A stretch of DNA of 64,000 nt from Naegleria gruberi (taxonomy: Eukaryota), in NCBI GenBank assembly GCA_000004985.1, contig GG738848.1. The stretch is one strand, 5' to 3'. The position numbers were made by a program, and so were the translations under genes. Every line of letters starts with the position of its first letter. The stretch's first letter is position 1. The notes under the pieces are model-generated. The model saw only the letters and a program-made list of their open reading frames with translations, did not search any database and was not told where the DNA came from. Positions 8,468 through 55,843 of the stretch are shown one piece after another.

Positions 8468-11400
8468 TTATGCATTTTTAGCAAGATATTTTTCAATTTT
8501 TTCTTTAAACATATCATCAATGTAAGTATTTTGAATGTTAATTACTCGAATGGTATTATTCGATTTGGCAAAATCAATCAAAGCTAAAGCTGCACCAATT
8601 GAAATCAAATTTCCACTCAAATCAAGCTCAACAATTGTTGGATGAGGCTTGAGAATTGAGACTAGGGTTTCAATAGCTGGATTTCTGAACCCTTGTTTTG
8701 GCAAACTCAATTTGTGGAATTCAACATTTAAAAGAGTTTCCAAGAAAGGCTCTAATCCCTTATCACCTAAATAATTGTCTGATAAATTAACTTCTCCATC
8801 GGTGACGATAGTATTTGTGCCAAATTGAGCTCTAAGACGAGTGTTTGGTCTAAGAGATCTCTTTTCACAGTTTTCAACATACACATCCTCAAGAGTTCTT
8901 TCCTTAACAGGTTCTTCTTCCTTAGTTTCTTCCACCACATATTCAGCTTGAGCTTCTTCGACATGTGTTTCTTCTGGTTGTTTGTGTTTTTCTGGTGCGT
9001 CAACACTTGTTTCCTCATGAGGTTCTTGTTTTTCCTCTGGTTGTTGGTGTTTTTCTTGCTTGTCTTCTTGTGTTTCTTCTTTTTGAGATGATTTCACGTG
9101 TGTTTCTTCTGAGAGTTTGGTATCAACAAAAGTTTCTTGGTGTGTTTCTTCCTGTGTTTCTTCATGATGGTTTGTTTCATCTTGTGTTGTGTATGAATCT
9201 TCAATTGTTTTAGTTTCTTCAGCAAATCTCACATGATGTTCCTCTTCAGTGGAAGATTCTTCTGAAGGTTGTTCTTCAAAGGTTTCAAAATCTTCTTCAA
9301 ACGAGTCAAACTCATCTTCCTTTTGAAGTTCAGCTTGTTCTTCTTCATGAGTTGTCTCCTTTTGTTCTTTTTGGTTATCTGCTGTCTCAATCTCTTCTGC
9401 TTGTACCTCCTCTTGTTGGTCAACCTCAAAAGGCAAACTTTCTTCATGGAATGGTTCTTGAACTGTTTGTTCTCTTGGAGATTCTTCTCCAGGAAAATGA
9501 TCCATATCTGTTTCTTGTTGATGACTTGTATCTTCTTTTTCTTCAGCTTCTTCTGATTGTTCTTTCATTTCCTTTTCCACTTGATCAACAAACTCGTTTG
9601 ATTCTTGTTTAATTTCTGTTGATTCCTCATTTGCAAACTCTTCGAATTGTTCCTCGAATTGATCTTCGAAGTGATCTTCGAATTGTTCCTCATGTTGATC
9701 TTGAGTTTCCTCTTGAGTTGGTTCATGGTCTTCTTGAGTTTCTTCTTGAGTTTCCTCATATTTCTCTTCGAAAAATTGATCTGTTTCATTGAACTCTTCC
9801 GTATTTTGCTCGAATTCATCAGTAGTTTCATTGAATTGATTTTCCTCAAAGTTTTCTTCATGACTTTCAATATTTTCAAAATTCTCATGTGTTTGTTCTT
9901 GGTTTTCAAGGCTCTCGAAGGTTTCTTCTTCAGTATTTTCTAGGGCAACTTCGTTATTTTCTGAGAATTCTTGTTCAACATGTTGTTTGCTGTTTTCAAA
10001 TTCATCCTCTTTAGTGACTTCCTCAGAAGATACTTCCTTAATGGACTCTTCATGTGCTGTTTGGTGAACCTCAAAGTCCTCTTCTTCTGAAACATGTACC
10101 TCTTCTGATTGTTCTTCATGTGATTCTTCCAATTCCTCTTGCTTACTTTCCACATATTCAACTGTTTCTTCAACTTGTTTAATCTCGCTTTCCTGATTGC
10201 TTTCTTGATGTCCAATATGTTCTTCGGTGCATTTAATTTCATCATTTTGTTCTTTGTGACTGTGTTCCTCAATAATTTGCTCCTCTTGTTCCTCAACCTT
10301 TTTGACCTCATCAACACTTTCGTGCTTAACTTGATGATGATCTTCAACCCTATCATGGTGTTCTTCATTCTTGATATCTTCCCTATGTTCTTCAGTTGTC
10401 TCAATGTTTTCATGATTCTCTTCGGTATGTTTATGCTCTTCAACAGATGCTTCCTCAATAGCTTGAGGTTTCTCTGTATTGGCAACTTCAAAAGGTAAGC
10501 TTTCCTCTTGAGGTGGTTCTGTAACTGGTTCCATTTTTGGTTCTTCTTCTTTGACAATTTCTTGTGCATGGATTTCTACTATTTCTTCAGTTTGCTCTTC
10601 GGAGGATTTGTTAATAATCTCAGTCTCTTGATATGCAATATTTTCTTGCTTATCATCGTGATTATGCTTTTCCTTCTTCTCTTCATTATCATGCTTTTCC
10701 TTCTTCTCTTCGTGATCATGTTTCTCAACCTTTTCTTCTTTCTTATCGTCTTTCTTCTCTTCAGGATCATGTTTTTTCTTCTCTTCCTTTTCTTCCTCAA
10801 CTTTCTCATCGTGTTTAAGCTCGTTTTTCTTCTCTTCATGATCATGCTTTTCCTTTTTCTCTTCACGATCATGAATCTCAACCTTTTCTTCCTTAACTTC
10901 CTCATGGTTATGTTTATCCTTCTCTTCATGAACATGTTTCTCAACATTTTCTTCCTTAACTTCCTTCTCATGGTTATGTTTATCCTTCTTTTCTTCATGA
11001 TCATGTTTCTCAACATTTTCTTTCTTATCCTCGTCGTGATTATGTATATCCTTCTTTTCTTCATGATCATTCTTTTCCTTCTCTTCGTGGTCATGTTTCT
11101 CAACATTTTCTTCCTTAACTTCCTTAACCTCCTCGTGGTTATGCTTATCCTTCTTTTCTTCATTTTCTGATTTTTTCTCATGACCTATTTCAAATGGCAA
11201 ACCTTCTTCTTGGAGTGGTTCTTGAATCGTTTGTTCTCTTGGGGATTCCACGTCTGCAAAATGATCCATATCTTCAATGTCTCTATGGCTTTTAGTTTCA
11301 GTATCTTCTTGTTCATGTGTTTCATGATCATCTAAGGTTTGATATTGCTCATGGTCGTGGCTTTCAGGAAGGGTAGAGCTGGTTTCATCATGATCCTCCT

Positions 11401-14281: not shown

Positions 14282-15002
14282 TCTTTTTGTTTTTTCAATG
14301 TTATACACCTAGTTTATGTAATAAATAATTGTTTAAGTCCTTATTATTTAAAAAAATTAATGACCAACAATGTGTTGAGGGTTGTTGGGATTTTTTTTGT
14401 TCTGTCTCTTGCCCTTAAAATGCTCTTGCTAAGACTACAATGCAGCCAATATGACACATGCACAACCCGCCAATAAAAACTACAAAAAATCCTCTTTTAC
14501 GCCTGTACCTAACCAAGTACAAGGAGGTTCTTTGCAAAGATTTAAACTCACACCCAACGCTTTGACGATAATTGATGTGTTTGTGCCTCTCTACGAGTTG
14601 GGCGGGAAAGTAATAAAAAGAAAATGGGCATATAAAATACCAATTCTGTAAATTCTGTATCGATCACAGAAGAGATCCATTAGTATGATCTTCATCATTC
14701 TCTATTGTGAATAATTCTAAAGTTCAACTGAGATTTTAAACCTTGGAAAGAAATCAACACCAAACAAGTGTCTTCTCATTGTTACCAACTTGGAGAGCTC
14801 ATTATATCCAAACAGAACTCACAACAAATTGTAGGAATTTGTCTCATTTTGATGATCAGTTTCGTCTGCCTAATTTTATTAGACAAGTAAGATTTGAATT
14901 TGTATTTAAAGATTTAACAGGTCTTAATCTGGAATATTTCTGAATTACCATTAGGTAGCTATTCCAATGAAAACAAGATAAAGTTATGTAGACTATTATT
15001 AT

Positions 15003-22200: not shown

Positions 22201-23964
22201 ATGAATTTTGAATCAAACATCCCAAAGAACTCTTCCCTTGAAGACTTTTTTAGTGGTGTTTTCAATACTAGTGCATCACACTCTTTCATGATGAATAATG
22301 ATGATAACATGTACTTGGATGAAAATGTTAATGAATTCTTTGGAACTAGTCCTGAGCAAGATCCATTCTCCTCCTACTTCCCTTTCAATAATAACAATAA
22401 TAGTTTTTATGCCACCTCCTTCCCTGAAAATTCATCACCAATTAATAACATCAATGAAACCCAACAACAAATTGCCAAATCCTCCTCTATCCTCTCCCTA
22501 ACTGATTTTAAGCCTTCCTTCTCTAGAACCTCTTCCTCTACCTCATTTGCAGGATTGCAAACCCCATCTATTCTCCACAATGGTGAATCCTCGCCGATGG
22601 AAAGCTTCCATCAAATGGATGAATTCCAACGTCAATTAGATGAAGATTTTTTGAGAAATGGTGGTGTTACCTCTCTCAATATTTCTTCAGAAAGTGCTTT
22701 CAAACCAAGATCTGATCAACATTTGTTTAAATTTAATAAGCAAATGGACTTTTTAAGCGGTATTCCAAAACCATCAACTACAGAATCAAATCAAGACATT
22801 TTTGCCTCATTGAATGATATTTCAGAGTCACTTATTGAAGAACCACCAAAAGATTCTACTATTGATGCTATGGATACTTCGAGTGTAAATTCCAAAACTA
22901 CACCTGGTCTTCCACCAGGTCATAAGATAATCAACGGTGAAATGTATAATGACAGAGGATATAAGATTTGTGGTTTTATGAATCAACATAATAGACCATG
23001 TCAAAGAATTGGTAAATGCCCATTCCACGATAGAATGAAGAGTGATAAACCTTTATCCACAAATAGTGATGGTATTATTGCTGCTCAGGATAGTATTGAA
23101 CCAGAACATTTTGCACCAACTCAGGTCGTTAAAGAAAAGAAGAAGAGTGAAAAGAAATCAAAGAAGAAACAAGACGAAACTCTGTTAGAAGTTCCATCAG
23201 TTGAATCTTTGACTACAAGTACTACCACAGCCAGTGCTTCAACAACAACTGAAGATAAACCAGCAACCAAGAAGCCATACAAGCAAGGTTGGACCAAGGA
23301 AGAACATATTCTCTTCCTTAAAGGTCTTGAACTTCACGGCAAGGGAAGCTGGAAGGAAATAAGTGCAATTGTTGGTACAAGAAGTCCAACTCAAATCCAA
23401 TCACATGCTCAAAAATATTTCCTCAGACAAAAACAACAAAAGAAGAATAAGCGATCAATTCATGACTTTACAATGGATGACATGAAGAAACAAGATTCAG
23501 TTGAAGAAGTTGAAGAAAACAATCACAAGAGAAAGAGAAACAAATCCAAATCAAAAGAATCCAAGAAGACTGGAGCTGTTCATTCTGAAGATTCATTATC
23601 ATCAGAACCACAATTAGAAGTATTTGGTGAAACTCTTGTTGGTGATGCTAATGCCTCACTTATGAAACAATTCACTTTAGCTCCTCCTAAACCACAACAA
23701 CCTCAACCACAAGATGCAAACTATATGGATATTATTAACAAGTTGAACCATTTGAAAAGCTTTCCCAAACAGTCACCTTCTACTGGCAAGTCTTCTGCTT
23801 TCAGCAGCGTTTCCTCGGACGAATTAGACTTTCACTTCAATACAAACAACGAATCAATTCCAACAGTTACAGAGGAACATTCTGATCTTTATGATGCTTG
23901 GGAAATTGGCGAATCATCAACAATAGATGATGTTGCTCCTTTCCAAAAGAAAATCAAATTGTAA
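22201..23964 (+). CDS. Myb/SANT DNA-binding protein, SHAQKYF class
   Basis: ATG at 22201. There is a single Myb repeat, KKPYKQGWTKEEHILFLKGLELHGKGSWKEISAIVGTRSPTQIQSHAQKYFLRQKQ. The rest is N/S/T-rich low complexity plus a small Cys/His cluster (CGFMNQHNRPCQRIGKCPFHD). 587 aa, no intron seen. Confidence 0.8.
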   Translation: MNFESNIPKNSSLEDFFSGVFNTSASHSFMMNNDDNMYLDENVNEFFGTSPEQDPFSSYFPFNNNNNSFYATSFPENSSPINNINETQQQIAKSSSILSLTDFKPSFSRTSSSTSFAGLQTPSILHNGESSPMESFHQMDEFQRQLDEDFLRNGGVTSLNISSESAFKPRSDQHLFKFNKQMDFLSGIPKPSTTESNQDIFASLNDISESLIEEPPKDSTIDAMDTSSVNSKTTPGLPPGHKIINGEMYNDRGYKICGFMNQHNRPCQRIGKCPFHDRMKSDKPLSTNSDGIIAAQDSIEPEHFAPTQVVKEKKKSEKKSKKKQDETLLEVPSVESLTTSTTTASASTTTEDKPATKKPYKQGWTKEEHILFLKGLELHGKGSWKEISAIVGTRSPTQIQSHAQKYFLRQKQQKKNKRSIHDFTMDDMKKQDSVEEVEENNHKRKRNKSKSKESKKTGAVHSEDSLSSEPQLEVFGETLVGDANASLMKQFTLAPPKPQQPQPQDANYMDIINKLNHLKSFPKQSPSTGKSSAFSSVSSDELDFHFNTNNESIPTVTEEHSDLYDAWEIGESSTIDDVAPFQKKIKL

Positions 23965-31532: not shown

Positions 31533-32957
31533 TTATTTTTTGCAAATTGACTCGTGTTTCTCTATTCTATCAGGATTGAATTTTCTTCCACAGACTCTAC
31601 ATGGCACTCGATGTGGTTCAGAAGATGAAGTTTGAGAGGATATTTTAGTTGTCACATTGTCAAGACTAGGATTTGGCATGTTCTTAATCTTTTCAGTAAG
31701 AATTTTGCTTGGTGATGGTTGGACCTCTTTCTTGGATCCTTTACAACTATTTTCGTGAATGGCCAATCGATCAAGAGCAAACTTTCTTCCACATTTTGAA
31801 CATTCTGCTCTTTCAAGTTCCTCATAAGCTTCTGAATTGTTTGAAGATTGTTTTCCAACAACAGCAGAAAATGGAACAACACCTCCTCTTGCTGCTGCAC
31901 CTGGTTGATTTTTGCCGAATGGAGGAGGGTTCTTATCTGCCTGTTTTTCACAAGATCTCAAATGGACAATTAAAGCTTCTGCATTGAATTTTCTGCCACA
32001 ATATTTACATCCAACTCTTGAACTTTGTTCAAAAATTCTATATGCCATTTGGTTATACTCATCAAGTTGTTGAAGGAACTCATCTGCCAACCGATCTTCA
32101 GGTATTGGAACTGTCGGTGCAGATGGAGGTTTTGTTCTCATTTCTTTTGGTAGTTCCTTTTGAGAAACAGCTCTCTTATCCAAACATTGAGGAATGTGGA
32201 ATGTTAGAGAGTCTACATTCAGATACTCCCTTCCACACAAGTGGCAACAATAAGCAATAGGCTTTCCATTAATATCCCTCATAGGAGCCTTCTTTTGTGA
32301 AGACGATGATCTACTCTGACTCACTGCAGTTTTTGAGACAGAATCTCTCACTGGAAGGTATTTATCAATATTTTGAGATGCTATTGTAGCTGATTTGTTC
32401 GATGAATTTGATCCTATTGAACCTGAAGAACTTTCTCTCACTAGTTGAGATTTTGAATTTGAGGGAGAGGTTTTTGGAGGAGTGTATTGAACCTGACGAG
32501 GAGGTGAGCAGGATCGGGGTGGTTGTATTGTTGATGATTGTTGTTGTTTTTTGGGTGATGAAGCAGAAACTGAGGGCTTGTTATTTTGTTGTTGTTGAGG
32601 TTGTTGCATTGTTTGTTGATGATGTTTTGGACTATTATCAGATGGATTGCATCTCAGAAAATGTTCTCCCAATTCACTAGCCTTGAATAATTTCAAACAT
32701 GACGGGCATGGATTTAGACTCTCCTGACAATACAACAATTTCGCATAAGTATTATACTTCTCAATGCTAGCCTTATCTTTAGAAGAGGAAGGCATCATCA
32801 TGGAAGGCAAACCCCGAGGAGGATACATCCTCTGCAATTCGGGAATCAACTTCTGCTGTTGAGCATGCCAATTATTAGAGCATTGAAACATGTGGTCCTT
32901 CAAATTTCCAAACTCCTCATTCTCTCCACAATAATAACAAATAAGCTTTGCAGACAT
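31533..32957 (-). CDS. zinc finger C2HC-type protein (ZC2HC1/FAM164-like), four C2HC fingers
   Basis: ATG at 32955-32957. A C..CG(R)(K/E)F.......H...C unit recurs four times: LICYYCGENEEFGNLKDHMFQC, YCCHLCGREYLNVDSLTFHIPQC, CKYCGRKFNAEALIVHLRSC/CSKCGRKFALDRLAIHENSC, and CRVCGRKFNPDRIEKHESIC. These are separated by S/Q/P-rich spacers. Confidence 0.75.
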   Translation of the reverse strand: MSAKLICYYCGENEEFGNLKDHMFQCSNNWHAQQQKLIPELQRMYPPRGLPSMMMPSSSKDKASIEKYNTYAKLLYCQESLNPCPSCLKLFKASELGEHFLRCNPSDNSPKHHQQTMQQPQQQQNNKPSVSASSPKKQQQSSTIQPPRSCSPPRQVQYTPPKTSPSNSKSQLVRESSSGSIGSNSSNKSATIASQNIDKYLPVRDSVSKTAVSQSRSSSSQKKAPMRDINGKPIAYCCHLCGREYLNVDSLTFHIPQCLDKRAVSQKELPKEMRTKPPSAPTVPIPEDRLADEFLQQLDEYNQMAYRIFEQSSRVGCKYCGRKFNAEALIVHLRSCEKQADKNPPPFGKNQPGAAARGGVVPFSAVVGKQSSNNSEAYEELERAECSKCGRKFALDRLAIHENSCKGSKKEVQPSPSKILTEKIKNMPNPSLDNVTTKISSQTSSSEPHRVPCRVCGRKFNPDRIEKHESICKK

Positions 32958-36874: not shown

Positions 36875-39346
36875 ATGGTCAAGAAAACAAAATTAAATAA
36901 TGAGCGTTTGGATAAATATTATCATATGGCCAAAGAGCAGGGATATCGTTCCCGTGCTGCTTTCAAATTGGTACAATTGAATAAGAAGTATGATTTTTTA
37001 GGAACTGCTAGAGTAATGTTGGATCTGTGTGCTGCTCCTGGAGGTTGGCTTCAAGTAGCTAAAAAGTTTATGCCTGTCAACTCTACACTTGTTGGTGTTG
37101 ATCTTTGCCCTATTAAAGCTATTCCACACGTAACAACAATTCAAGGAGATATCACAACTAAAAAGACAATGACAATGGTTAAAAACGTTTTGAGAGGACA
37201 AAAGTGTGATGTTGTTCTTCACGATGGTGCTCCAAACGTTGGTGCTAACTGGCTCAAAGATGCCTTCTCACAAAGTGAATTGTGTTTGTTTGCTTTAAAG
37301 ATGGCTACTGAATTTTTGAAACCTGAAGGATTGTTTATTACCAAAGTCTTTCGTTCTAAAGATTATACATCATTAATGTGGGTTTTGAATCAATTCTTTA
37401 CAAAAGTAGAAGCAACTAAACCAAAAGCTTCAAGAGATGCTTCTGCAGAAATTTTCGTAGTATGTTTTGGATACAAAGCTCCAAAAGAAATTGATCCAAA
37501 ATTATTTGATGCTTCTTTAGTTTTCGAGGATGTTGAATCACAAAAGAAGAAATTGAGACTTTCATTCAAGGACTTAGCTCAACAACAAAAGAAACCAAAC
37601 AGAGAAGGTTATGAAGAAGGTATGACTTTGCTCTATAAGAAACGTAGTATTGCAGAATTCGTTGAAAGTGATCAACCAATCAAGTTTTTGGTTGACTATA
37701 ACGAACTTGAATTTGATGAAGCATCACAAATTTATCTCAATCACCCACTTACAACAAAAGATATAATTGAAGCTTGTGAAGATTTACGTGTTTTGGGTAA
37801 ACCAGATTTCAGAATGTTGCTCAAATGGAGAAAGAATATGAAGGATTACAAGGATGAATTGGATGCTGATAACGATGAAGATATTATTGAACAAGATGAA
37901 GAAGATGAAGTTATGGAACCAATCCACGAAGATAACGAATTATCAACAGGTATTTCCAATGAAATGGATATTCCATCTGATGAAGAAGAATTAGACGGAG
38001 AATTGAAGGAATTGAAGAATAAGCAAACCAAAATTGAAAAGAAGAAGGAAAAGAAGGTTAGAGAAAAGCAAAAGAAGCTTGCTATCAAGGCTGCTGTTGA
38101 AAGACAAGAAGATATGCTCGATACCATTGATGATGGTTCTCTTTTCCGTATGAATGATATTTCAAGTAAGGATATGTTGGATGCTGTTCTAGATCCATCA
38201 CTTACCAGTAAAGTTTATAATGAATATTTGGAAAAGAAGGAAAAGACAAAGGAACAATTAAAGAAGCAAAAGGAAGCCATGGGTAGAATTGAACTCGATG
38301 AAGAAGAAGAAGATGATATTTTGGAAGCTGAACTTGATGCTTTATATCAACAACTCATGGATAAGAAGACAAGAAGATTCAAGGCTAACATTTTACAAAC
38401 AAGAGACCTCAGAGATCAAACTAAGAGTGAACTCTATGATGCCATTCAATATGAAGAAGAAAAATATGGCGCTCCAAATACTAATCCACTTTTAATTGAA
38501 CATAAGGAATTGGGATCCAAACAAACCAAAGCTAATCAATTCTTTGACCAACAAAATATTTTCAGCGTTTTGATGGAAGAACAAACTGGTAACAGTGACG
38601 ATGAAGATGAAAACGGTACTAGAACTAAGAGACGTAAACTTGGTAGATTGGACAATATTACTGAAGAAGAATTGGCTCAAGACTCATCAGATTCTGAATC
38701 AGAAGGTGAAGAAGACGATGATGATGGTGATGCCATTTCTGAATTCAAGAGAAAAGCCAGTGAAGGTAAGAAACAAGATGTTGGTGGATTTGAAGTCATG
38801 CCAAAGGAAATGAATGATCCAGAAGTTAGAGCTACTGCTCTTGCTTTGGGTAAGAAGCTTTTGAGAAAGAAGGAACGTAGAGAATTTATTGATAGTGCAT
38901 TCCATAGATATGCTTTCAATGATGAAGATGTTCCAGATTGGTTAGCTGACGATGAAGCCAAATCATATAGAAAACAAGACCCAATAACGAGAGAAGAAGC
39001 TGACGAAATTAAACGAAAGATGGCCGAAATTGATGCCAAGCCAATTAAGGCTGTTCTTGAAGCTAAGATTAGAAGAAAGATCAGAGCCCAAAAGAAGATC
39101 AAGATGGTAAAGGAAAAGGCTGATGTTATTGCACAAAGTCAAGAAATGACTCCACAAGAAAAGTCTAAGGAACTGATGAAACTTTACAAGGATGCCTCAG
39201 TGAAGACTCAAAGAAAGAAGGTCTACGTTGTTGCTGGTGGTAAGAAGATTATTGGTAAGAAGGCACCTGGCTCTATTATGAAGTTTGTAGATAATCGTAC
39301 AAAGAAGGATAAGAGAGCTACCGATGCAAAGAAGAGAAAGAGATAA
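36875..39346 (+). CDS. AdoMet-dependent pre-rRNA 2'-O-ribose methyltransferase Spb1/FtsJ3
   Basis: ATG at 36875. The FtsJ fold is clear: GYRSRAAFKLVQLNKKYDFLGTARVMLDLCAAPGGWLQVA, VGVDLCPI, VVLHDGAPNV and FITKVFRS. Spb1-type acidic and basic C-terminal regions follow, ending KKRKR. 823 aa, single ORF. Confidence 0.9.
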   Translation: MVKKTKLNNERLDKYYHMAKEQGYRSRAAFKLVQLNKKYDFLGTARVMLDLCAAPGGWLQVAKKFMPVNSTLVGVDLCPIKAIPHVTTIQGDITTKKTMTMVKNVLRGQKCDVVLHDGAPNVGANWLKDAFSQSELCLFALKMATEFLKPEGLFITKVFRSKDYTSLMWVLNQFFTKVEATKPKASRDASAEIFVVCFGYKAPKEIDPKLFDASLVFEDVESQKKKLRLSFKDLAQQQKKPNREGYEEGMTLLYKKRSIAEFVESDQPIKFLVDYNELEFDEASQIYLNHPLTTKDIIEACEDLRVLGKPDFRMLLKWRKNMKDYKDELDADNDEDIIEQDEEDEVMEPIHEDNELSTGISNEMDIPSDEEELDGELKELKNKQTKIEKKKEKKVREKQKKLAIKAAVERQEDMLDTIDDGSLFRMNDISSKDMLDAVLDPSLTSKVYNEYLEKKEKTKEQLKKQKEAMGRIELDEEEEDDILEAELDALYQQLMDKKTRRFKANILQTRDLRDQTKSELYDAIQYEEEKYGAPNTNPLLIEHKELGSKQTKANQFFDQQNIFSVLMEEQTGNSDDEDENGTRTKRRKLGRLDNITEEELAQDSSDSESEGEEDDDDGDAISEFKRKASEGKKQDVGGFEVMPKEMNDPEVRATALALGKKLLRKKERREFIDSAFHRYAFNDEDVPDWLADDEAKSYRKQDPITREEADEIKRKMAEIDAKPIKAVLEAKIRRKIRAQKKIKMVKEKADVIAQSQEMTPQEKSKELMKLYKDASVKTQRKKVYVVAGGKKIIGKKAPGSIMKFVDNRTKKDKRATDAKKRKR

Positions 39347-42985: not shown

Positions 42986-43151
42986 TGGTTGAATTTCCGA
43001 ACTTTCACATGTAATAGAATCATTTGCAAACTCTTCTCTTTCTAATCTTTTCATTTTTTTTAATTAATATTTAAATAATAATTTTCAAATTGAACTTTCC
43101 ATTGTAATCTGTGAATTAATCCATCTTTGTGGAGGAAAGAACTTTAAAAAA

Positions 43152-44411
43152 ATGAAAAGACACACCACAGAGGAAGCATCATCTCCATCAAAATCCAGCA
43201 AAACTGTGCCAACAGCTGCACCTTTTTCATCGGAGAGTTTGGCACAAATTTTGTGTTTTCTACATGTTGAAGATGTTGTGAGTGCTTCGATGGTTTCTAA
43301 TCAGTGGAATGCAACTTGTATTGATTATCAGGAAACTATCTGGAAGGCTGTCTGTTACAATTCATTGAATGATCTGGAAAAGTATCCATTCATGAAGAAT
43401 GTTAAAGGAGGAACATTTGATATTCAAGCTTATGAGGGAATTTATTCTTCATGGAAGGAAACTTTTGTTAAAATGTAGGTTTAAAGTTTAGCTTTCACAT
43501 AATTACTATTATCATGGTGAAGGTTTTATGGACAACTCAAGGAATTTACATCCCAATATCAAATGTATGTGAATGAAGTGTTTGCTGATGTAGAGGATAA
43601 GGAGAATATATTAGAGACCATGAAGAAGAGATCCACTCTTGCAATTCCCTACACTTTTAAAGGTCAACAACAAGAGCAAAATGAAGTATTTGGAGACGAG
43701 GGGACTGAAGAAAAGAAAGATGATGAGGAAAAAGATGAAGATGAAGAAGGAGATTGCAAAGACAATACCCCTATTGGATCAAGTAAGATTGGTGGACTTC
43801 CTGACCTACCAAAAGGAATGAAATGGCCAAATGTAATCGATGACGAAGAACAATTGCTCAAGTTTGTGTGTCAAATCGATTTGAGAGATCTCAAAAACTA
43901 TCACTCAGTTAAGGGAATATTACCAAGATGTGGCTGGTTGTTTTGCTTTATTGATTGGGAGAATTTGGAAAGTGATGACTACAAAGAACCATATTCTTTC
44001 TATTGGAATGGACCTATTGATATGCTTGAAAGGGTGAAACCAGAAGATGGATTGGAATATGAAGAGAGTAAGGTAGCTCAAATACAGTTCAAAAAGGAAG
44101 TAGTTCAACCACTCTCACCAGAAAATGCTCTTCGTATGGATGTTAACGAAAAATACTCAAGCAGTAAAGCTGATTTGGGAACATCAGTAATGGGATATCC
44201 TGAAGCAGTTCAATCAGAAGATGAAATGATTTGTGATGATCGTTATTTCATTCTCCAATATCAAAATATGTCACTGAACAACAATCTGGTTGATACTGCT
44301 GACTCTGTATTTTATTGGATGCTCCCTTTAGAAAGTCATGAAAAAATCAGAAATATCAAAGATGATAAGAAACAAATCAGAGTTCCACTATTCACAACCT
44401 TCCAATGTTGA
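43152..44411 (+). CDS. F-box-like protein fused to a DUF1963 (YwqG-like) domain, 2 exons
   Basis: Exon 1 is 43152..43474 (ATG after an A7 run; LAQILCFLHVEDVVSASMVSNQWNATCID is F-box-like). The 48-nt intron runs from GTAGGT at 43475 to GTGAAG ending at 43522. Exon 2 is 43523..44411. The C-terminal half matches DUF1963 (GGLPDLPKGMKWPNV...LLKFVCQIDLRDL...LPRCGWLFCFIDWENLE). Confidence 0.7.
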
Positions 44412-44449
44412 GTATTAAATGTCAAAAATAGTTTTGTAACATATCAAAG

Positions 44450-45650
44450 TTTACAACATTGGTTGTAAACCCTGAAAACACCCAAAATTTATTAAAAAAT
44501 TTACGCAGCTTTAAATTATACACTTTAACTCTATAGGTATTGGTGGCGAGTTGAATTGATAGAGCTCTGTAAGCTTTTTTGGCTCATTAAGGTTGTGATT
44601 CTAAACTAAATTTATTAAAAAAATGCAACACGTCGCTATCAAGAACATAAAGAGAAACTCCTGTTAGATTCACCTGGTCAAAAAACACTTGTTGAAAGCC
44701 AACCTACGATTTAATCATCATGTTATGGAAGAAACAGAAAAGGTGATGAAGCAAATGAGTACAAAAATACTAGAGGTTTAAACTCACATACTCTAATTGG
44801 ACCAAGAGGTATTGGTAGCACCATTGATATTCCCAAAAATCATTCCCATTTATATCTCATACTTAGAAATTGAAAATGAGCTGTTTCTCCAAAACCACAC
44901 TGTTTTGGAGATTGGGGAGATGGTGCTAAATGAACAGGGTATTACAATTGAAACAGAGGGAGGAAGATCTAACAACATTACGAGAGCTCTACAAAGGGAA
45001 GATAAGTTTGTACTTGTATTGTAGATGAAATAGATCAATGTTATTGTATCAAGTTACTCCACACGGTTATAGCGAAACTCTTATCAAGATCATTAGGAGA
45101 ACTGGCTTCCATTGGTGATAACAGTAGTGGAAGATTTTCGGCTGCTATATGTAGTTCTTCTTCACGAATTTCATTACTTGTTAATGCTAATGGTAAAAAA
45201 GATGCTGTTACAGTTAAAGAGTTTCCTCATATTGCTTGTTCCCCTAATTTGAATGGAAATAAGTTTAGAGTACGTTTTTTACATCTCTCCATGTTGAATC
45301 AAACCCTCAGGCCTTGGGTACAATACAAGAGGGCATTGAAGTAGACGATTTGGATCATTGGATTTTCCATCTATTTGATAGAGACTTCATAACAGTTTGT
45401 AAGATCAACAATGGAAGACCAGACGAAATTTACCCCTACTCGCTCCACATGTTGTTAAGATGAAATGACAGAGAGTGTTAAAAAAGAGGATGCAAGAAGA
45501 ATGTCGGTATGGTTTCATGAAATGTGGGATGGTAACTCTACTTCTAAGAACCTTGCACTAATTGCATTTGCAGTATGCCAAAGCACTTTGAGAGGTTTCT
45601 AATTATTTTGATCAAAGGTTTTTGAATAAAAGTTGACCTTTTGTCTTGGC
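44450..45650 (+). pseudogene. candidate frameshifted gene remnant (or unresolved multi-exon gene); ORF-poor 1.3 kb with coding-like open frames lacking starts
   Basis: There is no ATG-initiated ORF of 60 aa or more. Several long stop-free frames on the + strand overlap in different phases. One runs ~110 codons from ~45035 (VCTCIVDEIDQCYCIKLLHTVIAKLLSRSLGELASIGDNSSGRFSAAICSSSSRISLLVNANGKKDAVTVKEFPHIACSPNLNGNKFRVRFLHLSMLNQTLRPWVQYKRALK*). The -1 frame continues (…LHVESNPQALGTIQEGIEVDDLDHWIFHLFDRDFITVCKINNGRPDEIYPYSLHMLLR*). A further frame reads DEMTESVKKEDARRMSVWFHEMWDGNSTSKNLALIAFAVCQSTLRGF* (~45463-45603). GC is higher than in the surrounding intergenic DNA. Confidence 0.35.
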
Positions 45651-45788
45651 ACATCACAAATAATTGCCTCACGAACAAGATACTAATTATACTTTAATAT
45701 TGACCTTGCATGCCTGCTAGGACGGTCTTCAAAACACCTTCCAATGTTAACAATTCTATCAATTTACATAATTTATTGTAATTGTTCA

Positions 45789-46930
45789 CTATTGGGTATT
45801 CTTATAAATTTTCTTCACTAGAGTGGCATGATGTTCAAGCTCCTCCTTTTGTTGCTCAATTATCTTAACCAGCTCCTTCTTTGAAGTTATTGATTCCATT
45901 ATTGTTTCAAAGTTACTCGATATTTTTTCAATTAGGGACCTTGTTGAGTTGTGAGATTGACTTGTTAAATGAGCTCTTTGTAAGGCTCCATTTAATTCAT
46001 CTATCGTTTAGAGTTGGAATCACAATCAAAAATTTAGTGTCAAACTTACCAATCATTTCTCTCATTTCCAGAATTTGTCGTTCTCTTTCTAAATATTTTC
46101 TTTTGAGATTGTTTACATATTGTTGATGTCTCGAAACGAGTCCAGAGTATTCCCTAGCAACTTGAATAGCTCTCTTCTCTCTTAGTCTTGAATTTTGATA
46201 CTCCTTTTGAAGTTTTATCACCATGTATCGCAGTCTTTGTTTTTCAACATCATTGGAACCATCATTCCCTAAAATTACAGCCGTGTTATTCGGAGATCCA
46301 TTGCTGGACGTGGAAACAGACATTATTTTCTTAATGTTTCGCTGAGAGTTTTGTTGAGGAAGTGACTTTGGTGAGAGATGATTTTTTACCTTCTCTCTAA
46401 TTGCACTCAGCTTGGCATCAATTTCATCCGTTTGTTTTTGAAATTCTCTTCTTGTTGTTGTTAAATTCCCCCTTTTCTCAGGTGTTGTTTCTAACACAGA
46501 CGATTCGGACTCTCTTTCATCTCTATCATCTATGGATCTTATTATTAATTCACTTAGTTGTTTTTTAATTTCATTAAGCTCATCCGAAGAATCTCTCGAT
46601 TTGTTATCCAACGATACATTATGTAATTGTTTTAATATCATTTCCTCATCAAGATTGGAAACAAGTTTTTTCCCTACATGAATTGGTAAATTCCTTAAAA
46701 TTATAAATATTAAACTTACAGAATTCTAGCTCTCTTTCATCCCCATCAGAATTATTTTCAGTGTGTTTATCTGTATTATCAGTAATTTCCTTTGACTCTA
46801 TTCGTTCATCCTTGTACAACAAATGGGATCGATTAGGTTTTTTAAGGCTTAATTTTTTCATCTTTTTTTTAATATTTTTTTTATAACAGAAAATTAGTGG
46901 AGGGAGTTTATTGTTCGTTAAATTGCCCAT
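45789..46930 (-). CDS. hypothetical coiled-coil protein, 3 exons
   Basis: ATG at 46928-46930. Exons: 46930..46720, 46673..46050, 46000..45789. The introns are 46 nt (GTAAGT...TCATGTAG) and 43 nt (GTAAGT...AAACGATAG). Both keep frame across the two track ORFs (46649..46930 and 45997..46641) and add a 70-codon C-terminal exon ending ...HATLVKKIYKNTQ*. K/E/R-rich heptad-like segments (LRYMVIKLQKEYQNSRLREKRAIQVAREY). Exon 3 rests on splice logic only. Confidence 0.55.
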
Positions 46931-47106
46931 TCAAATAAATGTCGTCTAGCCAATTGTTAAATCATCATTATACATGAGATGGATGGCAGGAATGTAATAG
47001 TCATCTCTAATCCCCAACTCTTCAAACTCTCCATCTTCATCCTCAATTCCATTCTCAGATAAGGTTTTTTCTACAATTCATTTTACGATAGGACCAATTA
47101 GTGATA

Positions 47107-47787
47107 TTAAATTGTGAACTTACCCATATCTAAAACTTCTCCTAGTCGTTTCCATGTGTAACTTGCTGCATGAGCATTGAAAACCAAGTATCTATCCAAA
47201 ATCTCCCTTAATGTCTCCTCAGAACAGACTTCCAATTGATGATCATCTTGTGTTAGTGTATTGATAATTCTTATAAATCGGGTTTTCCTTGATAAATACC
47301 CAATCATGTACTTTGAGTCTTGCCACCAAGGCACTACAGGAATCACTTCTTGAGTTTTTGATTTTGCTTCATAAGGTGGTGCAGGTACATGTAAAAATCT
47401 CTTCATTGGTGTATAGAAGGCTCTTTCGTTAATGATTGGATCTATCCATGTTTTTACATCTTGTGTTGTTGCATCAAACCAATGGGAAATATCCCTTCCA
47501 GCATTAGCAACAATTGGTTCAATTAATACAGAAGCTAAAATCCAATTTGATCATTATTCCGATTTGTAGTATAGTGATTACATACTTTTGTTTAGAGCAA
47601 TGAGTGGAGTAAGGTTGTACACCTTATTTAAAAACGACACCCAACAATCACTAGCACAATTATGTTCACTCACTTCATAGGGTGTATAAAATCTCCTCTT
47701 CTTTGCATTCAAAGTCAAGTTATGATATTCCAATGGTGGAAGAGCACTGGCAGTTGATGATGCTCCCTCCGATGATGAACCACTCAT
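47107..47787 (-). CDS. cytochrome b5-like heme-binding domain protein (CYB5D1-like), 2 exons
   Basis: ATG at 47785-47787. Exon 1 is 47787..47586 (…YTPYEVSEHNCASDCWVSFLNKVYNLTPLIALNK, the cyt-b5 HN..DCW...VYD.T pattern). The 51-nt intron runs GTATGT...GATTTTAG. Exon 2 is 47534..47107 (…ANAGRDISHWFDATT...). The track ORFs 47578..47787 and 47107..47406 are the unspliced parts. Confidence 0.65.
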
Positions 47788-48643
47788 TCTTTTTTGCTTG
47801 AAATAACGTAATTGAATGGCGCCAAATTACATCCACCTACCGTAAATAACATCATCGGGATTTATTGCTACAATCTATTTCTCTAATTTTGTGTTGATTT
47901 GTACTGCCATTACGTTGTGATGGGTCGGTTTTCTCTCATTCCTACTATTGATAGGAGTTAGTGCTGTCCAATGATTAGTCAACAGTTTCTGCTTCTAATT
48001 ATTTAACAAGGTGAATTAAAGTAGATAATTGTTGAGGTAATTTTCTAATGCATGAAACAAAGTGAGTGGCACAATACTTTCAAAGGACTTTTTGTGGCAG
48101 TTTAGAATGACATTAACAAATCAATATTAGAAAACTTTTCCCAATTTTCTCAAGTCGCCAATTTATTGACCCTTTAAAGCCACAACGATTCGTTCTGTCT
48201 CGTCGTTAGCCTTGTGAATTTCCATTCTCCAATTTCCAACACTTCAATAGTTTACTAATAACAAGACGACTCGAAACTGCATCAAAACAACAAACCACTT
48301 TATATAATTGGTTGTGGTGGATTGTCAATTTGATTGTAATTTGAAATTAATTGCCATGCAACAATAGAAATGACCAAATCATAAGATGAACACTATGAAG
48401 TAACGAATTTCATAACCGAATCCTCTTTCTGTGCAGTAAGTGAACAAGGAAAAGCGCAAGTCGTTTGTCAAAATCGAACGAGAGCATCCTCAACACGCTC
48501 ATGTCAGAGAGTTTTAGGCTCTCAGAGGGCAAAGAGAATTGACACGATAGACGGATGACATTGTTTTTTCCAACAGCAAAAAAAATCCATCATCACCCTC
48601 TTCTTTTTATTCAAAAATCTTTCCCACCATACTTTCATTAGAA

Positions 48644-49837
48644 AATACACAAAATGTCTAATAACAAAACTTGTAAAGTTGTCGCTGTTGGTAAGTATTT
48701 ACTATTGAATTCAAAGTTTATTAATTTGAATTTACAGGTGACGGTGCTGTCGGTACGTAGGAGAAGAAATTTCGTTGTTGATTATTAATTGATGGTTTTA
48801 AATTGACATTTGACAATAACAGGAAAGACTTGTTTGTTGATGGTCTATGTTAATAATGAATTTCCGGAGGATTACATTCCTGTAAGTAAAATAGCCTAAA
48901 CTTGTTGTTATAACCTTTCATCATCATCATAGACTGTCTTTGATAAGTATGTATTTGTGCGCTCTATTTGATGAATTAAATTCATCCAAATCACATCATT
49001 CTAATAACAACAATAACAAAATAATATATAGCTATGATACCAATGTAAAATACCAAGATAGTGTTGTTCGTTTGAGTTTATGGGATACAGCTGGTCAAGT
49101 AAGTAATAATTCGTTCATGAAAAAATTAATGCTAAATTGATGAAAATTTCAATTATTTGATTTTGTTTTTCTAACATTGTTCCATGATGAATACGTATTC
49201 ACTCTCTTCCTAAACGTTAAATAGGAAGGTAAATATTATTATTTATTTAAATTTATATTCATGGTGATGATTTATTATAATAGAGTAAGTATTATTCTTG
49301 TTCAATAATTATTGAAGGTTTACTTTCTTCTTGCTTGTTTATTTTGAAAATTTCTCTATTATTCAAAAATAGATATGATCGTCTGAGATATCTTTCATAT
49401 CCAAATACCAACGTTTTTATTGTTTGTTTCTCCGTAAATAGTAGATCATCATATGATAACGTTAAAGAAAAGGTAAGTTTCGAATATTTTACTGAGCAGT
49501 AAAGCTCACATACGTTTAGTGGCTTAAGGAATTGAATGAATACAGCAAGGGAACACCAATCATTCTCGTTGCCACCAAGATCGATATCAGAGATGACAAG
49601 GCAATGATTGAACAATTAGCTAAAGATGGTGAAAAAGTTCTCACAGCAGAAGAAGGTGAAAAACTTGCAAAGGAAATCGGAGCAGCCCACTACATTGAAA
49701 CATCAGCTCGTACACGAAAGGGTGTTGATGAAATTTTCCAAAAAGCTTTGGATGTTCGTTTTGCTAAAGGAGGAAAAGCTGCAACTCCAAGCAATGAATC
49801 TAAAGGAAATGGTGATGGATGTTGTATTTTAATGTAA
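48644..49837 (+). CDS. Rho-family small GTPase (Rac-like), at least 7 exons including a 14-nt micro-exon; one junction unresolved
   Basis: Exons supported by homology and GT-AG: 48644..48680 ([13 protein letters not shown]), 48738..48752 (DGAV), 48823..48881 ([20 protein letters not shown]), 48933..48946 (TVFDN, micro-exon), 49032..49098 ([22 protein letters not shown]), 49373..49472 ((E)[33 protein letters not shown]), 49520..49837 ([26 protein letters not shown]...GCCILM*, a CAAX end). Between 49099 and 49372 a 2-mod-3 mini-exon, giving E(E/D) before YDR, is required but I could not place it with canonical sites. Confidence 0.75.
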
Positions 49838-50139
49838 AGTACAATAATTGACAACTCAAAGAATTTATATTTATATTGAAATCAAATGGAAAAGAAAACA
49901 TTTTCTTTACATATCTCTCTTCACACAAATTTTTCAAAACTTTCACATAATCACTACTCACACTCCTTCAACACTACCAATGTCCAAAAAAACACACAAC
50001 TAGATTTTGTACGATATTATTAAACAGTAAAATTCTTTATTTGTTAATTGACTAGATCTTGGTGCTGAACACATTATCATTAACTCAAACCATGTTGTGA
50101 AATTTGATCTAGTCCTTCACACAGTAAAGATAACAACGC

Positions 50140-50170
50140 TGTCTTTTTTGGTCAATCAATTTGTTGGCAA
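50140..50170 (+). repeat. 31-nt exact duplicate (copy A) of the 5' leader of the CN-hydrolase-like gene
   Basis: tgtcttttttggtcaatcaatttgttggcaa at 50140-50170 is identical to 54579-54609. Both copies continue with ...acaccaagaa. Copy A lies in the intergenic region 565 nt upstream of the LRR gene that starts at 50735. Confidence 0.85.
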
Positions 50171-50734
50171 TTTTAACACCAAGAATCAGTAGAGGTTCTG
50201 ACTATTAATTCATTAGGTATTTATTTTCAAAAGAAACGAATCACTGATCCATGATACACTCAAGATGAAGTTCCTTTCAGAAATACAACAGTTTCCTATC
50301 CTTTGGAAGATGGCAGAATTATAAGATTTAACGTAAATTCGTATATTTCATAATATATAACTGGTGATCAACTCTTTCAAGTTTTATCTTCGGAAATTCG
50401 TACAACTTCATCTTTCTAAACCAGTTTCTCCATTCAAGAGATGTTTGAAATTGGTTAGATTTGTTTTAACTCTATTCAGGAGTTTATGCCAAACAATTAA
50501 TTGATTCCATAAGAAAGTAATAAATTCAATTAAAATTAAAAGTTTTAAATTGAAAAAAATGCTTTCACAAAATTGTCAATTACGGCAACAACCCATCAAG
50601 TCGCCATCAGCAAGAATATTTCATTCGATTGGATTGCAATCTGTTGAATGGAACTAAAGCAAAATGGACCACATATTAGGAATTAGTATTTCTGGTGATT
50701 AAAGTTCCACAACAAAAATTAACAAATTAAAAAA

Positions 50735-52239: not shown

Positions 52240-52312
52240 GCTGGCGTAGCTCAGTCGGTAGAGCGTTGGTCTAATAAGCCATTGGTCGCCGGTTCGATCC
52301 CGTCCGTCAGCA
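52240..52312 (+). tRNA. tRNA-Ile, anticodon AAT (read as IAU)
   Basis: The 73-nt cloverleaf folds by hand. The acceptor stem GCTGGCG/CGTCAGC has 7 bp with one G-U. The D-arm is GCTC-AGTCGGTA-GAGC (A-box TAGCTCAGTCGG). The anticodon stem is TTGGT/GCCAT with loop CTAATAA (anticodon AAT). The T-arm is GCCGG-TTCGATC-CCGTC (B-box GGTTCGATCC). The discriminator is A and no CCA is encoded, as expected in eukaryotes. It is close to human tRNA-Ile-AAT. There is one mismatch in each of the anticodon and T stems. Confidence 0.8.
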
Positions 52313-54619: not shown

Positions 54620-55843
54620 ATGATTTCACACCAAGAAGGGGAACAAGTTGTCTCACAGCAGCAGCAAATCATTGATGACAATAATGTGGAGAATGTTTCA
54701 TCATCGGATCAAGCTAATAATGAAACCAATATTATTGTTGTTCATCCAACAAATTTAAATCAAGATTATTATCGGAATGAAGAAACATTCAAGCAAGCTA
54801 TGAATAATTTTGTAGATTTAGCATCAAAACAAGAAGAATCAATAGATAAATCCTTTAAAAGAAATATAATAATATTCCCAGAAATGATTGGAGCATGGTT
54901 AATTTGTCTAAATGAACAACCCTTCACTTTTTGGATTCCTTCACAATTATTAGCAATAATATTTATTGCATTTTCAAATATTATTCAATTTATAAGATAC
55001 TTTATTAATGAATGTTGGATTTACTTTTCAGAAATTAAAAGATTGACTAATTTATTAAGTTTTGTAGCATGGGAGGGAATAATTTATAGAAGTATTTTCA
55101 AGATGAAATCACAATTAATGTTTGATGTTTATTTGAGTACATTTTCAGAGATTGCCATTAATAGGAATGCCTATGTCATTGCAGGTTCAATTTATTTACC
55201 AAAAATTGAATATACTCACAAGTTCAAGAGATTGACCAATGATGGATTTTACAATCAATCAATTGTTTTTGATCCAAGAGGAAATATTTGTCATATTAGT
55301 GTCAAGGCATTCCCATCAGAAGATGAACATTACATTCTCACAAAGCAAAAAGATAGAATTTTCAAATCGAATGATTTCACCTTTGAGATTGAAGATTTTG
55401 GAAGAGTTATTCTCTTGATTGGATATGATTCATGGTATCCAAATTGTTATCCAACAGCCATTTCTAAAGAAAAGGATATGCCAAAACTTGTCATTGTTCC
55501 ATTTCTTTCTTCACCAGCAAATTCTTGGAAAGAATGTTGGCAAGGTTTTCAAGACAATGGACCTCTTCCACAAGATTTTGATGAATTTAACTTGGCAAAT
55601 TCAACAAGTTTGAGTGATTTATGGAAAGGTGATGGTGCAGGTTTGAGAATTTTCAAACAAAATAAGACCACCTCAAATCAATTATCAACCACAAATAATA
55701 TTAACACCTCATCATACTTTATTTGTTGTCAAATGACTGGAAAAATTTGGAGTTTATCAGCTAATGGTGAATCATTTATTAGAAACTCTGAGAAAGTACT
55801 ATTAGAAACTAACCTCAATGGATTTAATATTTCAATAAAATAA
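54620..55843 (+). CDS. carbon-nitrogen hydrolase (nitrilase superfamily)-like protein with an inserted hydrophobic segment; catalytic Cys apparently absent
   Basis: ATG at 54620 after an A6 run. CN-hydrolase signature blocks are present: IIFPEMIGAW (the Glu), NAYVIAGSIYLP, SIVFDPRGNI, and RVILLIGYDSWYP, where the canonical G..iCyD..fPE Cys position is Tyr. A TM-like insert is FTFWIPSQLLAIIFIAFSNIIQFIRYFI. 407 aa. Confidence 0.6.
   Translation: MISHQEGEQVVSQQQQIIDDNNVENVSSSDQANNETNIIVVHPTNLNQDYYRNEETFKQAMNNFVDLASKQEESIDKSFKRNIIIFPEMIGAWLICLNEQPFTFWIPSQLLAIIFIAFSNIIQFIRYFINECWIYFSEIKRLTNLLSFVAWEGIIYRSIFKMKSQLMFDVYLSTFSEIAINRNAYVIAGSIYLPKIEYTHKFKRLTNDGFYNQSIVFDPRGNICHISVKAFPSEDEHYILTKQKDRIFKSNDFTFEIEDFGRVILLIGYDSWYPNCYPTAISKEKDMPKLVIVPFLSSPANSWKECWQGFQDNGPLPQDFDEFNLANSTSLSDLWKGDGAGLRIFKQNKTTSNQLSTTNNINTSSYFICCQMTGKIWSLSANGESFIRNSEKVLLETNLNGFNISIK

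What the first reader, a model, noticed from the sequence alone, without database searches (positions are those of the whole stretch)
44450..45650. ORF-poor 1.3 kb with overlapping start-less open frames: a decayed gene or a mis-assembled one
In an otherwise tightly packed region this stretch has no callable gene, yet it has a coding-like composition. Three long stop-free frames each switch phase at the previous frame's stop, which is the pattern of a frameshifted pseudogene or of 1-nt indel errors. One switch point sits in the homopolymer cgttttttac at ~45270.
Basis: seen in the sequence. Interest (0 to 1): 0.5.

Follow-up and report, generated by a model that had tools for sequence, protein, structure and literature searches.

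The report
Dead duplicate of an ATPase gene
The gene-free gap is the decayed, unannotated remnant of a second copy of a Naegleria gruberi ATPase gene, an ordinary pseudogene and not a sequencing or assembly error.

Summary
The window is Naegleria gruberi NEG-M nuclear DNA, shown by exact protein matches. Between 44411 and 45997 no usable ORF exists, but the + strand carries a chain of stop-free frames: 44797-45021, 45006-45341, 45269-45460 and 45459-45599. Translated, they match an uncharacterised AAA+/AAA_22-type P-loop ATPase family (E 6e-56). The closest relative is the intact N. gruberi gene NAEGRDRAFT_68862 (597 aa), which lies on another scaffold.

Against that parent, the locus keeps the start codon (44623) but has many lesions:
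- a TAG stop at codon 15;
- the Walker A lysine changed to serine;
- deletions of 32, 1, 166 and about 168 nt;
- a +5/+1 insertion pair;
- three further deletions found only in NEG-M (193, 2 and 10 nt).

An independent assembly of a roughly 98.5% identical strain shares every old lesion and has two of its own, so assembly error is excluded. The homologous blocks abut or overlap, so introns cannot explain the frame changes. The "homopolymer" switch near 45270 is the junction of the 166-nt deletion.

Retained codons give dN/dS of about 0.13, so the copy was functional for a long time and died recently. This is an ordinary duplicated pseudogene of low interest.

The parts
44623..44667 (+). Relic start codon (ATG at 44623) and codons 1-14, ending in a premature TAG at 44665-44667.
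   Evidence: The nucleotide alignment with the parent-type gene L001 places this ATG opposite the parent's ATG, and both are preceded by an A-rich AAATTT...AAAAAAATG context. The TAG is read directly from the sequence and is also present in strain L002.
44668..44746 (+). N-terminal relic in frame 1 (ANLRFNHHVMEETEKV, about parent aa 22-40). It ends at the junction of a NEG-M-specific 193-nt deletion at 44746/44747.
   Evidence: Strain L002 keeps 193 extra nt here. Those bases encode the equivalent of parent aa ~40-113 (tblastn of P0013 aa 24-136 in one frame).
44754..44822 (+). Parent aa 114-136 in frame 0, including a degenerate Walker A motif at 44799-44822 (GPRGIGST instead of GRRGIGKT). 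It is followed by a 32-nt deletion that shifts the frame.
   Evidence: tblastn gives 83% identity. K135 is invariant in 20 family members. The 32-nt gap is seen in the DNA alignment.
44812..45021 (+). Parent aa 144-213 in frame 1. It ends at a 1-nt deletion (about 45015-45017) just before Walker B.
   Evidence: tblastn gives 63% identity. The 1-nt gap is seen in the DNA alignment.
45018..45275 (+). Parent aa 213-296 in frame 0, with Walker B (IVDEID, 45018-45035). It contains a compensating +5/+1 insertion pair (about 45037 and 45088) that scrambles roughly 17 codons.
   Evidence: tblastn gives 70-72% identity. The insertions are seen in the DNA alignment.
45270..45282 (+). Junction of a 166-nt deletion (parent aa 297-350 lost, frame shifted).
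   Evidence: Parent block aa 213-296 ends at 45275 and block aa 351-368 starts at 45272 in another frame. The TTTTTT run corresponds to the parent's two Phe codons TTC TTC. The run is identical in L002.
45272..45325 (+). Parent aa 351-368 in frame 2 (TFFTSLHVESNPQALGTI). It is followed by a net in-frame loss of about 56 codons (parent aa 369-429).
   Evidence: tblastn gives 83% identity. Alignment A1 shows the gap.
45341..45460 (+). Parent aa 430-469 in frame 2 (LDHWIFHLFDRDFITVCKINNGRPDEIYPYSLHMLLR). It ends at a NEG-M-specific 2-nt deletion at 45459.
   Evidence: tblastn gives 87.5% identity. Strain L002 reads through in frame here.
45465..45602 (+). C-terminal relic in frame 0. Parent aa 472-488 are recognisable to 45515. 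A NEG-M-specific 10-nt deletion lies at 45533, and the frame ends at TAA 45600-45602.
   Evidence: tblastn gives 47% identity over 17 aa, as part of a linked hit. The indel is listed.

Best explanation
Window 44623-45602 (+) is a non-functional, duplicated pseudogene in the nuclear genome of Naegleria gruberi NEG-M. It descends from an old duplicate of NAEGRDRAFT_68862 (XP_002675861.1, 597 aa). That gene belongs to an uncharacterised eukaryotic family of AAA+/AAA_22-type P-loop ATPases.

The copy stayed under purifying selection for most of the time since the duplication. It then lost constraint shortly before the two sampled N. gruberi strains diverged, and it has been eroding mainly by deletion since then.

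It cannot make the ATPase:
- translation from the conserved ATG stops at codon 15;
- the Walker A lysine is replaced;
- five other family-invariant residues are deleted;
- at least five frame changes separate the remaining blocks.

Shown by tool results: the homology, the lesions, their presence in a second strain, and the indel excess. Inferred: the order of events (functional first, dead later), the lack of any current function, and the mode of duplication (DNA-level rather than retrocopy).
For: **Organism.** Five window ORFs are exact N. gruberi proteins or exact matches in a second strain.

**Homology.** The concatenated frames hit P0001 at E 6e-56. P0001 clusters at 90% or more with N. 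gruberi XP_002675861.1, here P0013. P0013 blocks aa 114-136, 144-213, 213-296, 351-368, 430-469 and 472-488 map in order to frames 0, 1, 0, 2, 2, 0.

**Lesions at nucleotide level**: TAG at codon 15, deletions of 32, 1 and 166 nt, a +5/+1 insertion pair, and an in-frame loss of about 56 codons.

**Invariant residues.** K135 is changed to S. R297, G334, R338, N387 and W411 are deleted.

**Independent strain assembly.** L002 is 98.2-98.8% identical and shares all the old lesions. It differs by five indels inside the relic: 1, 193, 7, 2 and 10 nt.

**Indel distribution.** Five of the 12 indels between the strains fall in the roughly 1-kb relic. None falls in about 2.6 kb of flanking ORFs.

**Past constraint.** dN/dS is 0.134 and dS is 1.28 over 181 retained codons against the parent DNA.

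**The family is real and intact elsewhere.** There are 225 cluster representatives at E<1e-30. Intact copies sit between ordinary cellular genes in other compact eukaryotic contigs.
Against: - No transcription or translation data were available, so a residual non-coding or regulatory role cannot be excluded.
- The codons used for dN/dS were chosen because tblastn could align them, which biases dN/dS downward.
- The NEG-M annotation of this locus could not be read directly, because the look-up of encoding contigs had no record for this genome. 'Unannotated' therefore rests only on the fact that no protein model from this locus appeared.
- The parent's DNA beyond codon 419 was not available, so the size of the second large deletion is inferred from protein alignment only.
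Confidence: 0.93

Rival explanations
1. The locus is a functional gene whose frame is broken only by sequencing or assembly errors, such as 1-nt homopolymer miscalls in the NEG-M assembly.
For: One frame switch coincides with a run of six T at about 45275-45280. One lesion is a single-base deletion.
Against: - An independent short-read assembly of another strain has the same TAG, the same 32-, 1- and 166-nt deletions and the identical T6 run.
- Most lesions are tens to hundreds of nucleotides long.
- The invariant Walker A lysine is substituted, which is not an indel.
Confidence: 0.01
2. The locus is a normal multi-exon gene, and the frame changes mark introns removed by splicing.
For: N. gruberi does have intron-containing genes. 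The neighbouring Ras/Rho-like GTPase has exons at 48940-49140 and 49532-49837, and the cyt-b5-like gene has exons at 47107-47406 and 47578-47787. These are separated by stop-filled gaps of about 170-390 nt.
Against: - Here the homologous blocks overlap by 4-11 nt at each switch (44812-44822, 45018-45021, 45272-45275), so no intron fits without removing conserved residues.
- Relatives encode the whole region in one continuous frame.
- Splicing cannot restore the Walker A lysine, the roughly 110 missing conserved codons, or codon 15 (TAG).
Confidence: 0.02
3. The relic is a processed (retrotransposed) pseudogene rather than a DNA-level duplicate.
For: A 13-nt exact direct repeat, ACCTTCCAATGTT, lies at 44397 and 45736 and brackets the whole relic like a target-site duplication.
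Against: - No poly(A) tract precedes the 3' repeat.
- About 8 such 13-nt repeat pairs at comparable spacing occur by chance per 55 kb of this window.
- The first repeat copy lies inside the coding end of the upstream gene.
- dN/dS of 0.13 implies that the copy was expressed and selected for a long time, which is uncommon for retrocopies.
- With dS above 1, a neutral 13-nt duplication would not be expected to survive intact.
Confidence: 0.07
4. The open frames arise by chance in AT-rich intergenic DNA.
For: Open-frame length alone is only modestly unusual: 33 of 2000 shuffles reach 112 aa.
Against: Homology at E 6e-56 to a conserved protein family, with co-linear blocks.
Confidence: 0.005

Closest known systems
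Naegleria gruberi NAEGRDRAFT_68862 (XP_002675861.1 / UniProt D2VJ05, 'predicted protein', 597 aa)
   Same: It is the closest relative. Retained blocks are 63-87% identical in protein and about 74-81% in DNA. The block order is the same, the start codon sits at the same position, and both share the Walker B IVDEID and the motifs SLGELASIGDN, SSSRISLLVNANGKKD and HWIFHLFDRD.
   Different: The parent is intact and lies on another scaffold (396 kb against 713 kb). The window copy has a nonsense codon and at least 5 frame changes, has lost about 40% of its length, and carries K135S. Synonymous divergence is saturated (dS 1.28), so the duplication is old.
Pfam PF13401 (AAA_22) and the ORC/Cdc6-like AAA+ ATPases
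   Same: Intact family members match AAA_22 around Walker A and B. P0003 scores 39 bits and P0010 scores 30 bits, against a cut-off of 27. The AlphaFold model of P0010 finds ORC4, Cdc6 and Orc1 as best PDB folds (Foldseek E about 1e-6).
   Different: The matches are weak and generic. P0013 scores 22.8 bits, below the cut-off, and TM-scores are 0.25-0.3 on a model with pLDDT 60. The conserved C-terminal half has no Pfam match. No link to replication is shown. The window relic itself matches no Pfam model.
Duplicated (non-processed) pseudogenes of eukaryotic genomes
   Same: It has homology to a functional paralogue, multiple disabling mutations and deletion-biased decay. It also has an indel polymorphism density like non-coding DNA: 5 per kb in the relic, about 2.7 per kb in other non-coding DNA and 0 in flanking ORFs.
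   Different: Nothing essential differs. The one notable trait is the long period of constraint before death (dN/dS 0.13).

Membership tests
Pseudogene (duplicated, non-processed) | Clear homology to a functional protein-coding gene in the same genome | tested here: met
   P0013 (XP_002675861.1) aligns in six co-linear blocks, with a linked E of 4e-55. The first search gave E 6e-56.
Pseudogene (duplicated, non-processed) | Disabling mutations (nonsense, frameshift, loss of essential residues) that are real and not artefacts | tested here: met
   The lesions are a TAG at codon 15, deletions of 32, 1 and 166 nt, a +5/+1 insertion pair, K135S and the loss of five invariant residues. The same lesions occur in independent strain assembly L002.
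Pseudogene (duplicated, non-processed) | Relaxed selective constraint at present | tested here: met
   Five non-triplet or large indels separate the two strains within about 1 kb, against none in about 2.6 kb of flanking ORFs (a rough Fisher-type probability is about 0.0015, my own arithmetic). dN/dS against the parent is low (0.13), but it mostly measures the earlier, functional period.
Pseudogene (duplicated, non-processed) | No functional transcript or protein product | not testable with these tools
   No RNA-seq or proteomic data were available.
Processed pseudogene (retrocopy) | 3' poly(A) tract, flanking target-site duplications and loss of the parent's introns | tested here: inconclusive
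   There is no poly(A) tract. A 13-nt flanking direct repeat exists, but it is compatible with chance. The parent's intron structure was not available.
AAA+ / AAA_22 P-loop ATPase (as a functional member) | Walker A GxxGxGK[ST] with the catalytic lysine | tested here: not met
   The window reads GPRGIGST at 44799-44822. K135 is invariant in 20 relatives.
AAA+ / AAA_22 P-loop ATPase (as a functional member) | Walker B hhhhDE in the same reading frame as Walker A | tested here: not met
   IVDEID is present at 45018-45035. However, it is separated from Walker A by two frameshifts, the 32-nt and 1-nt deletions.
AAA+ / AAA_22 P-loop ATPase (as a functional member) | Pfam model match above the gathering score | tested here: not met
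   The four translated frames have no Pfam hit at E<=1. Intact relatives do match: P0003 at 39.4 bits and P0010 at 30.3 bits, against a cut-off of 27.

The most novel reading that the evidence does not exclude
The ATPase family itself may be a fast-turnover family in Naegleria-like amoebae, for example a STAND-like defence ATPase or a gene carried on a repeated or selfish unit.

Four of the five heterolobosean-type loci examined are damaged:
- this relic;
- the parent's orthologue in the second strain, which has GAA changed to TAA at codon 389 (L001);
- a copy truncated at both ends (L003);
- a copy with a nonsense codon and a frameshift, on a 1.85-kb contig whose ends overlap by 29 nt, which suggests a tandem or circular unit (L004).

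The family has no Pfam model of its own and no studied member. Some relatives touch the NACHT and nSTAND models weakly.
Probability: 0.12. Interest if true: 0.5.

Novelty: new member of a known kind. Interest (0 to 1): 0.15.

Why it matters
This mainly matters for annotation. A 1.6-kb "empty" interval in the compact N. gruberi genome is explained as a dead paralogue, and it should be labelled as a pseudogene of NAEGRDRAFT_68862.

It also gives a small natural sample of neutral decay in this genome. Every event that could be polarised against the parent is a deletion, and the relic has shrunk from at least 1.47 kb to about 0.9 kb.

It flags an uncharacterised AAA+-type ATPase family, conserved in protists, with at least 225 clusters at 50% identity, no dedicated Pfam family and no studied member. 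None of this is surprising to a specialist.

Tried and rejected
**Paralogues inside the window.** Self-BLAST (tblastn and blastn) of the frames against the window found none.

**Pfam on the raw frames.** There were no hits, so the relic cannot be recognised by domain models alone.

**NEG-M's own annotation.** The look-up of encoding contigs had no record for four exact N. gruberi proteins or for the parent P0013. The parent's genomic context and introns could not be read.

**Literature.** Searches for the sample and assembly accessions and for NAEGRDRAFT_68862 / D2VJ05 returned nothing.

**PDB sequence search with the family profile.** Only marginal hits appeared: Cdc6 at E 0.03 and a STAND NADase at E 0.08.

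**Structure prediction and fold search.** The P0010 model reached pLDDT 60, and Foldseek gave only generic AAA+ similarity with ORC/Cdc6 on top. This was not enough to assign a function.

**Names for family members.** All were 'hypothetical protein'. A third word-indexed search with a 20-sequence profile added nothing because of the candidate cap.

**Mobile-element signatures around the relic.** There are no terminal inverted or long direct repeats. The only candidate is one 13-nt direct repeat, judged compatible with chance.

**RNA genes.** An Rfam gathering scan found only tRNA-Ile at 52240.

**Considered and rejected.** Assembly error, a multi-exon gene and chance ORFs were rejected. A retrocopy origin is judged unlikely but not excluded. 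See the rival explanations.

Full report
**Source of the window.** The window is AT-rich (about 33% GC) and gene-dense. It has a eukaryote-type tRNA-Ile(AAT) and typical eukaryotic genes: a class I PI3-kinase, TPPII, Spb1 and Sac1. Exact-sequence look-ups identify it as Naegleria gruberi NEG-M, on a 712,659-nt scaffold. ORFs 31533-32957, 54620-55843, 36875-39346 and 22201-23964 are identical to XP_002682093, XP_002681949, XP_002681945 and XP_002681941.

**The observation.** No ORF longer than 75 aa lies between the F-box/DUF1963 gene (43152-43478 plus 43563-44411, +) and a 214-aa ORF (45997-46641, -).

The + strand carries stop-free stretches that relay from frame to frame:
- 44668-44778 (frame 1)
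- 44715-44870 (frame 0)
- 44797-45021 (frame 1, 75 aa)
- 45006-45341 (frame 0, 112 aa)
- 45269-45460 (frame 2, 64 aa)
- 45459-45599 (frame 0, 47 aa)

Against 2000 dinucleotide-preserving shuffles this is only moderately unusual. A frame of 112 aa appears in 33 of 2000 shuffles, and a top-four sum of at least 303 aa appears in 7 of 2000. So the pattern is real, but frame length alone would not prove it.

**What it is.** The concatenated frames hit three proteins among 5.8 billion, the best at E 6e-56. These proteins carry a Walker A (GRRGIGKT) and a Walker B (LLIVDEID) motif and match Pfam AAA_22 weakly.

The best hit, P0001, clusters at 90% or more with an annotated N. gruberi NEG-M protein. 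This is NAEGRDRAFT_68862 (XP_002675861.1 / D2VJ05, 597 aa, 'predicted protein'), which lies on a different, 396-kb scaffold.

tblastn of that protein against the window places its blocks in order:

| Parent aa | Window coordinates | Frame |
|---|---|---|
| 114-136 | 44754-44822 | 0 |
| 144-213 | 44812-45021 | 1 |
| 213-296 | 45018-45275 | 0 |
| 351-368 | 45272-45325 | 2 |
| 430-469 | 45341-45460 | 2 |
| 472-488 | 45465-45515 | 0 |

Identities are mostly 63-87% (47% for the short last block), and the linked E-value is 4e-55.

**Lesion map.** I aligned the window with parent-type DNA (L001, the orthologue of the parent gene in a second strain) and with protein relatives.

- The ATG at 44623 aligns with the parent's start, but a TAG follows at 44665-44667 (codon 15).
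- The Walker A motif reads GPRGIGST, so the lysine is replaced by serine.
- A 32-nt deletion follows Walker A.
- A 1-nt deletion precedes Walker B.
- A +5/+1 insertion pair scrambles about 17 codons after Walker B.
- A 166-nt deletion removes aa 297-350.
- A net in-frame loss of about 56 codons removes aa 369-429.

In a 20-member family alignment, 22 columns are invariant. The relic has K135S and has lost R297, G334, R338, N387 and W411 through the deletions.

Its six T's are the parent's two Phe codons (TTC TTC changed to TTT TTT).

**Not an artefact.** The downstream 214-aa ORF is also encoded on a 6,347-nt contig of an ENA assembly (ERZ929261, k127_578673; locus L002). This contig aligns to window 43056-49231 at 98.2-98.8% identity, so it is another N. 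gruberi strain that was sequenced and assembled independently.

It has the same TAG, the same K135S, the same 32-, 1- and 166-nt deletions, the same in-frame loss and an identical T6 run.

The two strains differ within the relic by five indels. NEG-M lacks 193 nt at 44746/7, 2 nt at 45459 and 10 nt at 45533. L002 lacks 7 nt at 45262. There is also a 1-nt difference at 44694. The 193 nt kept by L002 encode the equivalent of parent aa ~40-113, so that event is a deletion in NEG-M.

Of the 12 indels along the 6.2-kb comparison, five fall in the relic and none in the flanking ORFs. The other seven lie in non-coding DNA at 47.9-49.0 kb. This is what unconstrained DNA looks like.

**Not introns.** At each frame switch the homologous blocks overlap by 4-11 nt, so no intron can be placed between them. 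Relatives encode the region in a single frame.

Real interrupted genes in the same window look different. The exons of a Ras/Rho-like GTPase (48940-49140 and 49532-49837) and of a cyt-b5-like gene (47107-47406 and 47578-47787) are separated by stop-filled gaps of about 170-390 nt.

**History (inferred).** Over 181 retained codons against parent DNA, dS is 1.28 (saturated), dN is 0.17 and dN/dS is 0.13. If the copy had died at birth, a pairwise value near or above 0.5 would be expected. Even allowing for the bias of using alignable blocks, the copy was probably a functional paralogue for most of its life.

The number of shared lesions (about 8) is comparable with the number that arose since the two strains split (about 5 at about 1.5% divergence). 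Death was therefore recent, but it predates the strain split. Every event that can be polarised against the parent is a deletion, and the relic has shrunk from at least 1.47 kb to about 0.9 kb.

**The family.** A profile of six members finds 677 representatives at E<=1e-3 and 225 at E<1e-30, among 1.84 billion clusters at 50% identity. Most are 450-560 aa.

Intact members lie among ordinary cellular genes on compact eukaryotic contigs:
- between a kinase and a large WD-repeat, IFT140-like protein (identified from my reading of the sequence) in L006;
- next to a histone gene in L007;
- next to mitochondrial-carrier and M1-peptidase genes in L008.

Only generic matches to AAA_22, AAA_16, NACHT and nSTAND appear, and the C-terminal half matches no Pfam model. 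An AlphaFold model of P0010 (pLDDT 60) resembles AAA+ proteins, with ORC/Cdc6 on top, but at low TM-scores.

The N-termini of intact members are basic and poor in acidic residues. They look like organelle presequences. This is my own reading of the sequences and has not been tested. The family's function is unknown, and no named or studied member was found.

**Verdict.** This is an ordinary duplicated pseudogene, apparently unannotated. The assembly-error alternative and the homopolymer mechanism are not. Interest is low.

The only loose thread is that several Naegleria-type copies of this family are also broken (L001, L003, L004). This could mean rapid turnover of the family.

Noticed in passing
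L001 (ENA ERZ929261 k127_1369), positions 1401-1403: The parent gene's orthologue in the second N. gruberi strain has TAA where NEG-M has GAA (codon 389, ...FEKNK*LLEQ...). Homology continues in the same frame after the stop. This is either a second, very recent pseudogenisation or an error in that assembly.
   Followed up: partly
L004 (Logan SRR22388309, 1850 nt) 1-29 and 1822-1850; L005: This family copy has a nonsense codon (NLNSS*FRTRR) and a frameshift. It sits on a contig whose first and last 29 nt are identical, and the contig begins with the C-terminus of the same gene. That suggests a tandem or circular unit of about 1.82 kb. GC is 40%, and the organism is unknown.
   Followed up: partly
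window 44397-44416 and 45736-45755: A direct repeat, ACCTTCCAATGTT (13 nt exact, 20 nt at 85%), brackets the whole relic like a target-site duplication. The first copy is the last codons of the F-box/DUF1963 gene. About 8 comparable pairs occur per 55 kb of the window, so it is probably chance.
   Followed up: yes
window 46650-50700: This is a second ORF-poor stretch. It holds intron-containing genes: cyt-b5-like exons at 47107-47406 and 47578-47787 (-), and Ras/Rho-like GTPase exons at 48940-49140 and 49532-49837 (+), the latter ending in a CaaX-like CCILM. Seven of the 12 indels between the strains lie at 47883-49006.
   Followed up: partly
window 8468-14308 (-): This 1946-aa ORF has extreme strand composition (AT skew about -0.45 and GC up to 0.43, against 0.33 elsewhere) and many short tandem repeats with periods of 12-66 nt. 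It has no Pfam match and is a low-complexity repeat protein of unknown nature.
   Followed up: partly
window 43152-43478 and 43563-44411 (+): An F-box ORF and a DUF1963 ORF lie 84 nt apart on the same strand. They are probably two exons of one F-box/DUF1963 gene. The 282-aa ORF alone is not on record as a protein.
   Followed up: no
window 44485-44499 and 44608-44622: The 15-nt direct repeat AAATTTATTAAAAAA occurs twice upstream of the relic's ATG. The second copy directly abuts the start codon. It is low-complexity sequence and may be a promoter-like element.
   Followed up: no
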